From a virus (taxonomy: Duplodnaviria; Heunggongvirae; Uroviricota; Caudoviricetes): DNA of 9,497 nt. The position numbers and the translations under genes are program-made. Within the stretch, counting starts at the first letter, position 1. Each line of letters begins with the position of its first letter. Shown here piece by piece: positions 5,420 to 8,282 of the stretch. Below the pieces are notes generated by a model. That model saw only the letters and a program-made list of their open reading frames with translations. It was not told the DNA's origin and ran no database searches. The DNA is taken from IMG/VR virus record IMGVR_UViG_3300014510_000025; one strand, 5' to 3'.

Positions 5420-6610
5420 TTAATTGCTGTTAACCGAGGTGACCAGATTTGCCAGGTATTTATCGGTAATACGCTGGCGCAGGGTCAGGTTTTCAAGAGG
5501 AGGCACCGGTGTATAGTCGTAGTCGATATACAGTTTTCCGGCCTTGAGGGTTTCCACATCGTTGGATTCTTCGCTGAACCAGCAGGTCGCATCCACGATA
5601 TAGCCGTTTGTTTTCAGCTCACGGAATTTGGCATTGATGCCGTCAACGATGTCGCGAATCAGCGTTGCGGTGATGGGCTTGTCCACCGCCCACATGTGCG
5701 CCTCAGCCATCGTGTCGGCCAGCACCTGCGCGGTGCGGGTATAGTTTTCAAAGAGGAACAGCGGGTCATCAGAGCAGGTACGGTTACCCCAGAATCGGAA
5801 ACCGTCGCGGCGAATCAGCGTAGTGACGCCTGACTCGTTAAGCAGGTCAGCATCGGTGCCGGACTCCTGCAAATCCCAGAAGACGGATGCGCTGATGCCG
5901 GTAACACCGTTCACCCCGACGTTGGACAGCGTTTTATGCCAGCCCTGCTCCTGGTCGATTTTAGCGCGCAGACCCAGCGCACGGGCGGTGGCATACGCGG
6001 TGGCGGTGGTACTGGTGACCGTATCCCATGCGAGGAAATCCGGCCAGATGACCATCAGCTCACGCTGGCTGAAATTCTGGCGGTAGGCTTTCACCTCGGA
6101 AATGGTCTTACAGCCCCATGCGCTGATATACCCGAAAGCGCGCAGCTTCTGACAGACTGATGCCAGTGCAACAGCCACCTCTTTGGTGTCCAGTCCCGGC
6201 ACACCGAGAATACGCGGTTTAACACCGGTTACCGACTCCGCCGCCAGCAGGGCTTTCAGTCCGGTGTACTGACCGTTTTCGTCGGTGGTGCCGATGATAT
6301 TGGAAACGGTCTGCGCGAGTTTCGTTTCCTCGTCATCACCGGTGCCGTCTTCCACGCGCACGACAACGGTGACCGGTTTTGACTGGTCAGCGATGGCCTG
6401 CAACGATGCCGCCAGCGTGCCTTTTTTACCGGCCTTTGCAATTGCGCTCTGCACATTGGTAATCAGCACAGGTTTATTGAGGGGGAAGGTTTCCGCATCC
6501 GCATCGCTGGCCGTGCAGACCATGCCGACAATGGCCGTGGATACGGTGGAAATGACGCGGGTGCCGTCGTTAATCTCCAGCACCTGCACGCCGTGATGAT
6601 AGTCACTCAT
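5420..6610 (-). CDS. FI: Contractile tail sheath protein FI (P2 gpFI-like), 396 aa
   Basis: The ORF-track entry 5420..6724 carries a 38-aa N-terminal extension. The internal ATG at 6610..6608 gives MSDYHHGVQVLEINDGTRVISTVSTAIVGMVC..., 396 aa, matching the P2 sheath start and length as I remember them. A GGAG Shine-Dalgarno precedes it, and the extension would have to read through a terminator hairpin. Confidence 0.9.
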   Translation of the reverse strand: MSDYHHGVQVLEINDGTRVISTVSTAIVGMVCTASDADAETFPLNKPVLITNVQSAIAKAGKKGTLAASLQAIADQSKPVTVVVRVEDGTGDDEETKLAQTVSNIIGTTDENGQYTGLKALLAAESVTGVKPRILGVPGLDTKEVAVALASVCQKLRAFGYISAWGCKTISEVKAYRQNFSQRELMVIWPDFLAWDTVTSTTATAYATARALGLRAKIDQEQGWHKTLSNVGVNGVTGISASVFWDLQESGTDADLLNESGVTTLIRRDGFRFWGNRTCSDDPLFLFENYTRTAQVLADTMAEAHMWAVDKPITATLIRDIVDGINAKFRELKTNGYIVDATCWFSEESNDVETLKAGKLYIDYDYTPVPPLENLTLRQRITDKYLANLVTSVNSN

Positions 6611-6705
6611 CCGTTTAACTCCGTGGTTAATGGGTGAGTGGTATTTTCTGTTGTGCAGAGCATGAGACGCTATTTGACCTGGCTGGTCAGTGGATGAAAC
6701 AACAG

Positions 6706-6730
6706 ATAAAGAAAAGGCGGACAATCCGCC
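6706..6730 (-). terminator. Candidate rho-independent terminator downstream of the cargo ORF (minus strand: GGCGGA-TTG-TCCGCC followed by TTTTCTTTAT)
   Basis: Perfect 6-bp GC-rich inverted repeat with a 3-nt loop (6730..6716) followed immediately by a T-rich tract (6715..6706) on the minus strand only. It sits between the cargo ORF and FI. Confidence 0.45.
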
Positions 6731-6734
6731 CGCC

Positions 6735-6752
6735 TGTCATGATTTGTACACA
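6735..6752 (-). promoter_or_regulatory. Candidate Ogr-dependent late promoter element upstream of FI (minus strand TGT-N12-ACA dyad: TGTGTACAAATCATGACA)
   Basis: This is the only TGT-N12-ACA match in the 285 bp upstream of FI. Established knowledge: P2 late promoters, including P_F upstream of FI, carry a TGT-N12-ACA element centred near -55. I could not find a convincing -10 at the expected spacing, so this is tentative. Confidence 0.25.
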
Positions 6753-6894
6753 CTCATTTTCCGACTGACAATTTACATAACCCAAAAGTTATCAAATCTG
6801 ACAGTCTGCTTTGAGCAAGAAGCGGACATTTGCCTGTCAGGGTATATGCCGCTCTGCGGTTATTATCCAGAATCAATAATTCATCTGAGTTGGA

Positions 6895-7533
6895 TTACAT
6901 ATAAAACATAGTTACCCCATGAATAACCATTAGCAGATCATCAATTATGTAAATCTTTTGTTTCAGGTTTTTTGGGTGTTGTGACAACAAATGGCTATAG
7001 CGTTTAAGCAAAATATTAGAAAGATTAAACTCATTCATGAAGTGTTCTTCTAATAAGTAACCATCAATATCAACTTTAATATCATTACTACTTTTCATCT
7101 TCTGTAACGTAGATTTTACACACTCCAGCAGGATGCTTTGCTCATGGTAATAGTCCATAAGAAGAGTAACATCCTCTTTATCAAGTTTACTTAATTCACT
7201 GAAGTAGGCTTTAAAAACTTTATCAGTCTGGTTTAATGCAATCTGTAAGCGAGGCCCTCCTAATGATTTGACATTAATGGCAAAAGGCTCGCCAACAAAA
7301 TGCTCCGAATTTTCGTCAAAGCCAATATTTCTCGTTTTATCAAGAAAAGTGAGAGCGCGATGGTTATTAGCGATTTCATATGCAAACATTGTTCTGATAC
7401 TGTCTCTCTCAGCCTCCATGCTTATATCATCACGATGATTCGTATAAAATATATTTCCAATAAAGAGAACCATAGCAAGAATCACTGAACTTGCCTCCCA
7501 ATTAATATTTTTTAATCGTCGCTTAGTAAACAT
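6895..7533 (-). CDS. Hypothetical membrane-anchored protein, 212 aa; AT-rich cargo gene at the position of the P2 Z/fun lysogenic-conversion locus (candidate superinfection-exclusion or anti-phage protein)
   Basis: Clean 639-nt ORF in roughly 30% GC DNA, where stops are frequent by chance. ATG at 7533..7531 is preceded by AAGGTG. The N-terminus MFTKRRLKNINWEASSVILAMVLFIGNIFY is a basic patch plus a hydrophobic segment of about 20 residues (signal anchor); the remainder is hydrophilic with no motif I recognise. It lies between G and FI, where P2 has Z/fun. Function is inferred from context only. Confidence 0.75.
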   Translation of the reverse strand: MFTKRRLKNINWEASSVILAMVLFIGNIFYTNHRDDISMEAERDSIRTMFAYEIANNHRALTFLDKTRNIGFDENSEHFVGEPFAINVKSLGGPRLQIALNQTDKVFKAYFSELSKLDKEDVTLLMDYYHEQSILLECVKSTLQKMKSSNDIKVDIDGYLLEEHFMNEFNLSNILLKRYSHLLSQHPKNLKQKIYIIDDLLMVIHGVTMFYM

Positions 7534-7599
7534 ACCGCACCTTAATTATCAAAAATATTCCTTCAGTGTTATCTGGTTAGCCTAAACCAAGACATTAAA

Positions 7600-7660
7600 G
7601 TCCGCAGGATATCATATACATAAAATGTATTGATTAGAATTTGCACTAATAAAATAATGC
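7600..7660 (-). promoter_or_regulatory. AT-rich putative promoter region for the cargo ORF (possible -10 TATGAT at 7616..7611)
   Basis: 221-bp AT-rich intergenic region between the G stop and the cargo start. Hexamer read from the minus strand; no strong -35. Speculative. Confidence 0.2.
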
Positions 7661-7754
7661 TTTACTAAAATCTACTCCAGACACAGAGCGGCCTGTCAGA
7701 TTAGGCTTTACTCTGTGCCATAGATATGTAAGCTCACACCAGAGCTCATACAAC

Positions 7755-8282
7755 TTATTGCGGCATTTCCGGCCATTCAGGATTTGCAGGATCCACACGA
7801 CTGACCAGAACGCTGTAACGCTCCCATGCATCCAGTCGGCTACGCTCCTCATCTGTTGCCATATTCAGCCTGACAGCGCGCTCCAGCGGCACAATCACGG
7901 ATTCGGCTTCGGAAAGCAAAGTTGCCTTTTGTGATTCTGCCAGTTGCTGCTGTTCGTCTGCCGTATAAATCCGCTTAATCACGGCACCATCCTTAAACAT
8001 CCATTTACCTGAGTCATCAGCACGTCGGTTGGCGGTAATATCAGGAACCTCGACAACGCTAAAACCTTCAGGGTTAAGCGTTGAAGCATCTCTGGTGATG
8101 CCGACAATTATATTATTCTCGTCGTAAACAATCTTTATCGTGTCTTCCTGAAAATTACTTACTTCCTCATACCAGTTTTTTCCGTCTTCAGACCATAACC
8201 AGACAACATCAAAATTTTTTGTCAGTTGATATTGGGCAACAGTTTTGGGATTACCCGCAGTAATATTTTTTAAATGCTGCAT
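7755..8282 (-). CDS. G: Tail fibre assembly protein G (P2 gpG-like, Tfa family), 175 aa
   Basis: 175-aa ORF, the same length as P2 gpG, starting 3 nt after the H stop (TAATTTATG). The translation ends ...[31 protein letters not shown], which I recognise as the C-terminal signature of phage tail-fibre assembly chaperones. Confidence 0.88.

What the first reader, a model, noticed from the sequence alone, without database searches (positions are those of the whole stretch)
6731..6840. Phased CTGACA / TGTCAG hexamers in the cargo-FI spacer, and a 9-mer shared by both flanks of the cargo gene
Seen in sequence: the hexamer CTGACA or its complement occurs four times in 110 bp (ctgtca 6734..6739, ctgaca 6765..6770, ctgaca 6798..6803, ctgtca 6834..6839), spaced 31, 33 and 36 bp apart (about three helical turns) with alternating orientation; about 0.05 occurrences would be expected by chance. 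The 9-mer GCCTGTCAG occurs on both sides of the cargo gene (6832..6840 and 7691..7699), the second inside a 7-bp inverted repeat CACAGAG...CTCTGTG (7682..7717). Inference: these could be operator sites for a regulator, possibly overlapping the Ogr-type TGT/ACA half-sites of the late promoter, or footprints of the recombination that swapped cargo into this slot. A single shared 9-mer is only weak evidence on its own.
Basis: seen in the sequence. Interest (0 to 1): 0.45.

Follow-up and report, generated by a model that had tools for sequence, protein, structure and literature searches.

The report
Decayed transposon ends flanking P2 cargo
The repeated CTGACA motifs are conserved sequence boxes in the two inverted ends of a transposase-less cassette, derived from an IS481-family insertion sequence, that carries the cargo gene between the P2 tail genes G and FI; relatives of this cassette carry anti-phage defence genes in other phages, plasmids and chromosomes.

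Summary
The hexamers and the 9-mer are at the stated coordinates. Only the two inner hexamers (6765-6770, 6798-6803) are conserved across P2-like phages. The cluster is not significant against the window's own hexamer density (P about 0.2).

Comparison with 41 filled and 5 empty G-FI slots shows that the cargo sits between two conserved inverted ends of about 90 bp (window 6745-6832 and 7672-7752). Each end has a TGTA terminus, a CTGACA box at nt 21-26, a CTGWCAG box at nt 54-60 and an inner hairpin.

An HMM built from ends of the type found outside P2 slots hits the window exactly at these two places (E 1e-13, 6e-12). Units with such ends, carrying other cargo, lie in plasmids, prophages and an E. 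coli chromosome. Several have perfect 7-bp target-site duplications. One carries Shango and one a SMODS/S_4TM pair.

The terminal 30 nt match the inverted repeats of a 1.2-kb IS481-family insertion sequence common on enterobacterial plasmids, which also makes 7-bp duplications.

The Ogr site lies elsewhere (about 6679-6707), beyond a terminator, so the operator reading fails. The window's own ends are decayed and probably immobile. Cargo turnover by recombination within the inner ends is inferred, not shown.

The parts
5420..6610 (-). FI tail sheath gene (context); ATG at 6610
   Evidence: ORF list and sequence; identical start region to P2 FI; RefSeq annotation of a 99.6% identical prophage
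6679..6707 (-). PF late promoter activator (Ogr-type) site, placed by distance from the P2 annotation; the core TGT-N12-CCA is at about 6684-6701; the transcription start is expected at about 6634-6636
   Evidence: P2 record: activator site 69-97 nt and TSS 24-26 nt upstream of the FI ATG; sequences compared. Position is inferred by homology, not measured
6706..6735 (-). Intrinsic terminator (AGGCGGGCGGATTGTCCGCCT + TTTCTTT) of the V-G late operon; it is phage backbone, not part of the cassette
   Evidence: Terminator scan; it directly follows the G stop codon in empty-slot phages; 97% of cells paired across 36 flanks
6738..6744 (.). 7-mer CATGATT flanking the FI-side terminus; a possible decayed target-site duplication partner of 7753-7759 (4 of 7 identical)
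   Evidence: Termini placed from the HMM alignment; empty sites read GCAATAAAC|ACAGGCGGGC; relatives have perfect 7-bp duplications
6745..6832 (-). FI-side (R-type, IRR-like) end of the cassette; terminus TGTACACAC at 6745
   Evidence: nhmmer with an HMM of ends of the type found outside P2 slots: 6832..6738, E=1.7e-13; conserved in front of 30+ different cargo types
6765..6770 (+). Box 1 (CTGACA), nt 21-26 from the terminus, the same position as in the inverted repeats of the IS481-family IS
   Evidence: TGTCAG in 31 of 36 flanks
6798..6804 (+). Box 2 (CTGACAG), nt 54-60 from the terminus, 33 bp from box 1
   Evidence: part of the top-ranked inverted repeat 6795-6813 / 7684-7702
6804..6827 (.). 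Inner hairpin of the R end (GTCTGCTT-TGAGCAAG-AAGCGGAC on the + strand); the conserved/variable junction lies in it
   Evidence: Alignments; pairing 74% of cells, no covariation; other-cargo megablast hits end at query 417-441, i.e. window 6816-6840
6832..6859 (.).
   Evidence: Sequence; absent from other cargo types; also one arm of a weak inverted repeat with 7602-7619. Interpretation is tentative
6895..7533 (-). Cargo ORF, 212 aa (RefSeq annotates a 197-aa product in a near-identical prophage); AT-rich; no Pfam or PADLOC match
7672..7752 (+). G-side (L-type, IRL-like) end of the cassette; terminus ...GCTCATACA at 7752
   Evidence: nhmmer 7672..7762, E=5.7e-12; conserved after the G stop codon in all 26 cargo types
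7693..7699 (+). Box 2 of the L end (CTGTCAG), nt 54-60 from the terminus, inside the palindrome CACAGAG(7682-7688)/CTCTGTG(7711-7717) typical of L-type ends
7727..7732 (+). Box 1 of the L end, decayed (TGTAAG instead of TGTCAG), nt 21-26 from the terminus
7753..7759 (.). 7-mer ACTTATT flanking the G-side terminus; it contains the G stop codon (7755-7757)
7755..8282 (-). G tail fibre assembly gene (context)

Best explanation
Window 6745-7752 is a 1008-bp transposase-less cargo cassette, a 'mobile insertion cassette'. It is bounded by two inverted ends of about 90 bp that descend from the inverted repeats of an IS481-family insertion sequence. The finding region is essentially the FI-side end.

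The end is laid out as follows, counted from its terminus:
- terminus TGTA at 6745;
- CTGACA box at nt 21-26;
- CTGWCAG box at nt 54-60;
- inner hairpin;
- cargo.
The G-side end has the same layout in mirror image.

Shown:
- the two ends are homologous to each other and to the ends of units in other genomic contexts;
- those units have 7-bp target-site duplications;
- their terminal 30 nt match IRL and IRR of a 1.2-kb IS481-family IS found in the same hosts.

Inferred:
- the boxes are binding sites for that transposase, supplied in trans;
- an ancestral cassette inserted at the G stop codon, in front of the V-operon terminator, in a P2-like phage;
- the outer halves of the P2 copy have since decayed, so it is probably immobile;
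- the many cargo alleles arose mainly by homologous recombination between the still-similar inner 40 bp of the ends and other cassettes of the family.

The outer two hexamers of the finding are not part of the conserved design.
For: 1. Slot comparison. Of 46 P2-like loci with both genes in range, 5 have an empty slot (G stop followed directly by the terminator) and 41 are filled, with 26 unrelated cargo types. All filled slots carry the same 88-bp G-side and roughly 95-bp FI-side flanks.

2. The flanks are inverted repeats of each other. This is the top inverted repeat in the window. HMMs of each flank hit the other flank in reverse orientation.

3. An HMM built from four ends outside P2 slots, plus one end of that same type nested inside a P2 slot, hits the window only at 6832..6738 (E=1.7e-13) and 7672..7762 (E=5.7e-12).

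4. Complete L-end/cargo/R-end units occur outside P2 slots: in an E. coli chromosome inside a toxin array, in Yersinia, Salmonella and Klebsiella plasmids, and in prophage contigs next to tail-tip and tail-fibre genes. Perfect 7-bp duplications are seen in L085, L166, L172, L173 and L214/L267, and 6 of 7 in three more.

5. Cargo of relatives includes Shango SngABC (E down to 2e-279), a SMODS+S_4TM pair, a TIR-domain protein and an HTH-2TM protein.

6. Metagenome contigs that match only the terminal 37 nt or so carry an adjacent 357-aa ORF. It scores 290 bits on NCBIfam transpos_IS481 (cut-off 224) and has HTH_29+rve domains. These ISs have perfect 7-bp duplications.

7. A 95% identical transposase is found on 828 plasmids, 180 of them Escherichia. 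A 1201-bp copy on an E. coli IncF plasmid has the duplication ACTGACT. Its IRL matches a cassette L end at 28 of 30 positions, and its IRR matches a cassette R end at 28 of 30.

8. CTGACA sits at nt 21-26 from the terminus in the IS and in both window ends. CTGWCAG sits at nt 54-60 in both window ends.

9. Phage P2 itself has the two ends around fun(Z).

10. The conserved/variable junction falls inside the inner hairpin: the cargo-proximal arm varies with the cargo and the distal arm is nearly invariant. This fits crossovers within the ends.
Against: - The window's own termini are decayed: 16 of 30 and 20 of 30 identical to the IS IRR.
- Its flanking 7-mers agree at only 4 of 7 positions, so transposition of this copy is not shown.
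- No binding or transposition data exist. The role of the boxes as transposase sites is inferred from position and conservation.
- The inner module (box 2 plus hairpin) is not seen at the left end of the IS. Its function is unknown.
- One complete unit (Salmonella plasmid, L168) has no recognisable duplication.
- In this sample the P2-slot ends were found only in Escherichia. Long conservation of a dead element would be odd unless recombination or some other function keeps it.
- A role at the RNA level is not excluded.
- An older paper on these P2 loci (Nilsson et al. 2004, Mol Biol Evol 21:1) could not be read. It may already describe the border repeats.
Confidence: 0.8

Rival explanations
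1. The hexamers are operator sites for Ogr or another regulator of the late promoter PF or of the cargo gene.
For: TGT/ACA-containing motifs lie about three helical turns apart. Two of them are conserved. The region lies upstream of FI.
Against: The annotated P2 activator site and transcription start map to about 6679-6707 and 6634-6636, separated from the motifs by an intrinsic terminator. Empty-slot phages keep PF but lack the motifs. The same motifs, at the same distances from a terminus, occur in plasmids and chromosomes with no late promoter nearby. The promoter scan finds nothing in 6731-6840.
Confidence: 0.04
2. The FI-side flank is a structured RNA: a small RNA or a 3'-UTR element that ends at the terminator. 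The hexamers would then be the two arms of a long hairpin (GACUGUCAG...UGUCAGUC).
For: The minus-strand fold gives a 44-nt hairpin followed by the terminator. That hairpin is 93% paired across 36 flanks, with many G-U pairs that favour the FI-sense strand. There is a weak Rfam hit to the enterobacterial sRNA family STnc630 (24 bits, E=0.06). Late transcripts from the V operon should read into this region.
Against: The fold is not better than shuffles (z=-1.5). There is no covariation beyond shuffled controls. The Rfam hit is far below the gathering score of 55, mostly covers the terminator and PF, and nothing reaches gathering score in 12 related loci. No promoter was found. The same sequence occurs as an inverted copy at the other side of the cargo and at transposon-like termini elsewhere. 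An RNA role would not explain that, though it could coexist with it.
Confidence: 0.1
3. The flanks are simply conserved phage backbone that serves as homology arms for cargo exchange. They have no transposon origin, and the hexamer cluster is chance.
For: Given the window's 18 copies of the hexamer, three copies within 110 bp is not unusual (P=0.22). The two outer hexamers are not conserved. The P2 copy has decayed ends.
Against: Empty-slot phages lack both flanks. The flanks are inverted repeats of each other. Homologous end pairs bound unrelated cargo in non-phage contexts with perfect 7-bp duplications. The termini match an IS481-family IS.
Confidence: 0.05

Closest known systems
IS481-family insertion sequences (single DDE transposase with an N-terminal HTH and an rve core; TGT...ACA termini)
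   Same: Termini TGTATTAG...CTAATACA. CTGACA at nt 21-26. 7-bp target duplications. IRL/IRR polarity is kept in the cassette ends (28 of 30 identities for intact cassettes). They occur in the same hosts and on the same kinds of replicon.
   Different: The cassettes have no transposase. Their ends extend to about 95 bp with an extra CTGWCAG box and a hairpin. They carry 0.6-6.5 kb of unrelated cargo. The copy in the window has decayed termini.
Mobile insertion cassettes (MICs) and 'transporter' ISs: IS-end-bounded units with passenger genes, such as MIC231 of Bacillus cereus (recalled from my own knowledge of the IS literature, not read here)
   Same: Two IS-type inverted ends, passenger genes, no transposase, target-site duplications, presumed mobilisation in trans.
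   Different: A different IS family and host range. Here the passengers include anti-phage systems, and one insertion has become a fixed variable slot of a phage lineage.
The P2 fun(Z) locus, the second defence hotspot of P2-like prophages (Vassallo et al., bioRxiv 10.1101/2022.05.12.491691)
   Same: The same locus between G and FI. It is known to hold fun(Z) and several experimentally found defence systems.
   Different: That preprint (searched by keyword) does not mention inverted repeats or a transposase, and the Rousset et al. section on P2 hotspots treats only the cos-proximal hotspot. The boundary structure and the IS481 link come from this analysis.
Integron gene cassettes with attC sites
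   Same: Variable single-gene or few-gene cassettes bounded by imperfect palindromes. Multi-gene slots show back-to-back hairpins between genes.
   Different: There is no integrase and no R''/R' core sites. The units have true terminal inverted repeats and target duplications. Cargo occurs in both orientations.

Membership tests
IS481-family-derived non-autonomous cassette (MIC) | Terminal inverted repeats with TGT...ACA termini | tested here: met
   Window termini are TGTACACAC (6745, read inward) and TGTATGAGC (7752, read inward). The ends are mutually inverted.
IS481-family-derived non-autonomous cassette (MIC) | Ends homologous to the IRs of an IS that encodes an IS481-family transposase | tested here: met
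   The transposase next to such ends scores 290 bits on NF033577 (cut-off 224). Intact cassettes match at 28 of 30 positions to IRL or IRR. The window ends match at only 16 and 20 of 30, but are linked through the 95-nt HMM (E 1e-13 and 6e-12).
IS481-family-derived non-autonomous cassette (MIC) | Target-site duplication of the length made by the cognate IS (7 bp) | tested here: inconclusive
   Perfect in at least 5 related cassettes and 6 ISs. In the window only 4 of 7 match (CATGATT vs ACTTATT). The consensus P2 slot has 5 of 7, consistent with an old duplication of AATAAAC.
IS481-family-derived non-autonomous cassette (MIC) | No transposase gene inside; passenger gene(s) instead | tested here: met
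   One 212-aa ORF without Pfam or PADLOC hits. No rve-type protein was found among 80 ORFs at related ends in viral contigs.
IS481-family-derived non-autonomous cassette (MIC) | Mobilisation by the transposase in trans | not testable with these tools
   This needs a transposition assay. Occurrence in unrelated contexts with duplications is indirect support for relatives only.
Ogr/Delta-type late-promoter activator site | Partial dyad TGT-N12-ACA centred about -55 from a late transcription start | tested here: not met
   The PF site maps to about 6684-6701 by the P2 annotation. The hexamers lie about 130-200 nt upstream of the start, beyond a terminator.
Rfam RF02052 STnc630 | Score at or above the gathering threshold (55 bits) | tested here: not met
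   24.2 bits, E=0.064. No hit at gathering score in the window or in 11 related loci.
Integron attC cassette | attC with R''-L''/L'-R' core sites, and an integron integrase nearby | tested here: not met
   No such cores appear in the flank consensus. The neighbouring genes are tail genes.

The most novel reading that the evidence does not exclude
The cassettes may be an active shuttle for defence genes. On this reading, an IS481-family transposase resident on enterobacterial plasmids moves them in trans into phages, plasmids and chromosomes. The cassette-specific inner module (second CTGWCAG box plus hairpin) would act as a dedicated exchange site that lets cargo be swapped between fixed ends. 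That would make the P2 fun(Z) hotspot, and perhaps tail-region accessory-gene sites of other prophages, products of one transposon family.
Probability: 0.3. Interest if true: 0.8.

Novelty: new variant of a known kind. Interest (0 to 1): 0.62.

Why it matters
It gives a concrete origin and boundary structure for the variable G-FI locus of P2-like phages, the classical fun(Z) locus and a known defence hotspot. In this reading the locus is a fossil IS481-type cargo cassette.

It also links that locus to a family of transposase-less cassettes that carry Shango, a SMODS/S_4TM pair, TIR-domain and unknown genes across phages, plasmids and chromosomes of Enterobacterales.

The end profile is a practical probe for finding new cargo genes, which are candidate defence or counter-defence functions.

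The proposed mobilisation by a common plasmid-borne IS can be tested directly.

Tried and rejected
- **Promoter and terminator scan of 6550-7800**. No promoter-like site lies in the finding region. The only relevant hit is the backbone terminator.
- **Rfam, permissive and gathering thresholds**. Only a sub-threshold STnc630 hit.
- **RNA folding of both strands** and **pair counting on 36 flanks for two candidate structures**. The helices are well paired, but there is no covariation beyond shuffles, so an RNA role is neither shown nor excluded.
- **Integron-like reading.** Suggested by the palindromes and by back-to-back hairpins between genes. Rejected once the units were found to have true terminal inverted repeats and 7-bp duplications.
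- **Tn7, Mu, Tn552 or IS21-type ends.** Considered from memory because of the long ends with repeated boxes. Dropped when the adjacent transposases scored as IS481 family.
- **Search for a transposase next to ends in viral contigs**. None found; the neighbours were phage and defence genes. The first 14-mer scan of viral contigs gave many chance hits and needed HMM filtering.
- **A K. quasipneumoniae plasmid region with a single end**. It was an IS-rich mosaic and uninformative.
- **Literature.**
  - Nilsson et al. 2004 and Odegrip et al. 2006 are not held.
  - Sequence-string and keyword searches found no description of these repeats.
  - The Rousset et al. section on P2 hotspots treats only the cos-proximal hotspot.

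Full report
**Setting**

The window is the tail region of a P2-like prophage, with all genes on the minus strand. They are D, U, T, E, FII and FI (5420-6610), an AT-rich cargo ORF (6895-7533), then G (7755-8282) and H. A 99.6% identical prophage sits in E. coli RM14723.

**The observation**

All four hexamers, the two 9-mers and the 7-bp inverted repeat are at the stated coordinates. Three corrections apply.

- CTGTCA is not the complement of CTGACA. The strict motif occurs three times in 6731-6840. The recurring unit is the near-palindromic heptamer CTGWCAG (6798-6804, 6834-6840, 7693-7699).
- The hexamer is common throughout the window: 18 copies against about 4 in shuffles. A cluster of three in 110 bp has P=0.002 under a Markov background but P=0.22 given the window's own density.
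- On its own, therefore, the cluster is not significant. What gives it meaning is comparison with other sequences.

**Where the late promoter is**

The P2 record annotates the PF activator site 69-97 nt upstream of the FI start and the transcription start 24-26 nt upstream. In the window that is about 6679-6707 and 6634-6636.

A strong intrinsic terminator on the minus strand (6735-6715 plus a T run) lies between that promoter and the motifs. The finding region is therefore upstream of both, and the Ogr-operator idea has no positional support.

**The slot in related phages**

I used the FI protein to collect 80 IMG/VR loci. In 46 of them both G and FI could be placed.

- Five have an empty slot, in which the G stop codon is followed directly by the terminator and PF.
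- Forty-one are filled, with 26 unrelated AT-rich cargo types. Cargo genes run in either orientation.
- A further group carries a DNA invertase gene next to PF and has no flank module.

Every filled slot has the same two flanks.

- After G comes about 88 bp: GTTGTATGAGC...GGCACAGAGTAAAGCCTAATCTGACAGTCCGCTCTGTGCCAGGAGCGGAC.
- Before the terminator comes about 95 bp: GTCCGCTTCTCGCTCAAAGCAGACTGTCAGATTTGATAGC...AATTGTCAGTCGG...GAGTACAA.

The two inner hexamers of the finding are TGTCAG in 31 of 36 distinct flanks each. The outer two are not conserved. Megablast hits from prophages with other cargo stop at window 6816-6840. The conserved/variable junction is thus at the inner edge of the finding region.

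**The flanks are inverted repeats**

The best inverted repeat in 6600-7800 pairs 6795-6813 with 7684-7702. HMMs of each flank find the other flank in reverse orientation in most loci. Each flank also contains a hairpin (GTCCGCT-N8-AGCGGAC) at its cargo-proximal edge.

**The same ends outside P2**

A 36-bp exact match to 6791-6826 in the E. coli CEC15 chromosome led to a complete unit inside a polymorphic-toxin array. It has an L-type end, 1.9 kb of cargo and an R-type end. Its termini are clean, 5'-TGTATTAGCTCAG...CTGAGCTAATACA-3', and it has a perfect 7-bp duplication, GATTATC.

Further complete units:

| Host / replicon | Size | Cargo | 7-bp duplication |
|---|---|---|---|
| Yersinia pseudotuberculosis plasmid | 3.4 kb | two hypothetical genes | GCTAATA, perfect |
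| Salmonella plasmid | 0.9 kb | one HTH-2TM gene | none recognisable |
| Klebsiella electrica IncFII plasmid | 6.7 kb | complete Shango system SngABC | 6 of 7; inserted in the centre of a palindrome |

More units are in prophage contigs, with perfect duplications ACTAAGC, CATAAGC and CTATATC. Their cargo includes a SMODS plus S_4TM pair and a TIR-domain protein, and some lie next to tail-tip or tail-fibre genes.

The R-type end occurs in 66 plasmids of more than ten enterobacterial genera. It covers at least 80% of its length in 241 of 5426 complete E. coli genomes, at one or two copies per genome.

An HMM made from ends of this non-P2 type hits the window exactly twice: 6832..6738 (E=1.7e-13) and 7672..7762 (E=5.7e-12). 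Four of its six sequences lie outside P2 slots, and one lies nested inside a P2 slot. The reference phage P2 has the same two ends around fun(Z).

**The transposase**

No transposase lies in or beside the cassettes in the viral loci.

A metagenome scan with the terminal pattern returned many contigs in which only the last 37 nt or so match. In these the adjacent 357-aa ORF has HTH_29 plus rve/rve_3 domains and scores 290 bits on NCBIfam transpos_IS481, whose cut-off is 224. These 1.2-kb ISs have perfect 7-bp duplications.

A 95% identical transposase is encoded on 828 plasmids, including 180 from Escherichia and 200 from Salmonella. A 1201-bp copy on an E. coli IncF plasmid has the duplication ACTGACT.

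- Its IRL, TGTATTAGTCGCGACTTGATCTGACAC, matches a cassette L end at 28 of 30 positions.
- Its IRR, TGTATTAGCTCAGACCTGATCTGACAG, matches a cassette R end at 28 of 30 positions.

The cassettes therefore keep the left/right polarity of the IS.

CTGACA occupies nt 21-26 from the terminus in the IS and in both window ends (6765-6770; 7727-7732, decayed to TGTAAG). The second heptamer occupies nt 54-60 from both window termini (6798-6804; 7693-7699). By my own reading of the IRR sequence, the IS carries a second CTGTCAG at nt 51-57.

**Interpretation**

The finding region is the FI-side end of an IS481-derived, transposase-less cargo cassette spanning 6745-7752. That the boxes are transposase binding sites is an inference from position and conservation.

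The window's termini are decayed: 16 and 20 of 30 positions match the IS IRR. Its flanking 7-mers agree at 4 of 7. The consensus P2 slot gives 5 of 7, and empty sites read GCAATAAAC|ACAGGCGGGC, which fits an old duplication of AATAAAC. The P2 copy is therefore probably a fossil.

The inner 40 nt of the ends remain close to those of cassettes elsewhere, while the outer half is specific to the P2 lineage. The cargo-proximal hairpin arm varies with the cargo while the distal arm is nearly invariant. Some multi-gene slots also contain nested ends or back-to-back ends.

Together these points suggest that cargo alleles are exchanged by homologous recombination within the inner ends. They do not prove it.

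This may be a trace of such an event.

**Rivals**

- An RNA role for the flank plus terminator remains possible but unsupported: the fold has z=-1.5, there is no covariation, and the Rfam hit is sub-threshold.
- The operator reading is contradicted by position, by empty-slot phages and by the occurrence of the same motifs far from any late promoter.
- Pure chance explains only the two outer hexamers.

**What is known**

This locus is recognised as a second defence hotspot of P2-like prophages. Keyword searches of that preprint, and my reading of the P2-hotspot section of Rousset et al., turned up no mention of border repeats or a transposon origin. Nilsson et al. 2004, which may discuss the borders, is not held.

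IS-end-bounded passenger cassettes are a known kind of element; this statement rests on my own knowledge. I therefore rate this a new variant of a known kind. It is of moderate to good interest because it explains a phage defence hotspot and defines a searchable family of cargo carriers.

Noticed in passing
window, whole (for example 127, 441, 2547, 3357, 3915, 4716, 6149, 7870): CTGACA/TGTCAG occurs 18 times in 9.5 kb against about 4.2 expected from dinucleotide shuffles (none of 200 shuffles reached 18). Most copies lie inside tail genes. I did not work out whether this reflects codon usage or something else.
   Followed up: no
window 6680-6796 (-): Sub-threshold Rfam match to the enterobacterial sRNA family STnc630 (24 bits, gathering score 55). 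The aligned part is mainly the terminator and the PF activator region. This suggests that STnc630 may itself derive from an equivalent terminator and late-promoter junction of a P2-like prophage.
   Followed up: partly
L169 17085-23759 (Klebsiella electrica IncFII plasmid NZ_CP041249.1): A complete Shango system (SngA, SngB, SngC; E down to 2e-279) sits inside a 6.7-kb cassette of this family, in the plasmid leading region next to ssb-psiB-psiA. The cassette is inserted in the centre of a palindrome.
   Followed up: partly
L045 316-575; L212 2323-2586; L252 3675-3938: In some P2 slots the G-side end is followed within about 260 bp by a complete R-type end of the non-P2 kind, an almost empty cassette. 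More cargo and the usual P2-type R end come after it. This is evidence for nested or tandem insertions.
   Followed up: partly
L061 1240-1380; L085 about 6890-6930; L008 1710-1755: Between genes of multi-gene cargo there are solitary or back-to-back copies of the inner hairpin (for example GGTCCGCTCCTCGCTCATAGCGGACC) without the outer end parts.
   Followed up: partly
window 6620-6710 compared with L001 553-650: The PF promoter region exists in two clearly different alleles among otherwise near-identical phages: the P2 type (ACCGGTGGTTGTGCTGTCGATTAGCC) and the window type (ATCTGTTGTTTCATCCACTGACCAGCC). Both keep TGT-N12-CCA.
   Followed up: no
L005, L011, L016, L022 and others, about 250 nt upstream of FI; Fels-2 (L084 7096-7653): A third class of P2-like loci has a DNA invertase (Cin/Gin-like) gene abutting PF in place of the terminator and cassette. 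It presumably serves tail-fibre switching.
   Followed up: no
window 6842-6859 and 7602-7619: A weak inverted repeat (18 nt, 72% complementary) brackets the cargo ORF inside the cassette ends. It may be chance.
   Followed up: no
window 6895-7533 (-): The cargo protein (212 aa from the first ATG; RefSeq aa in a near-identical prophage) has no Pfam or PADLOC match. The same cargo is present in 201 of 5426 complete E. coli genomes.
   Followed up: partly
metagenome loci L306 and L368: GC-rich contigs carry IS481-family ISs with the same terminal 25-30 nt (TGTATTAGCTCA.ATTTAA.CTGACAG). This end type therefore seems to extend to hosts with very different base composition. The organisms were not identified.
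   Followed up: no
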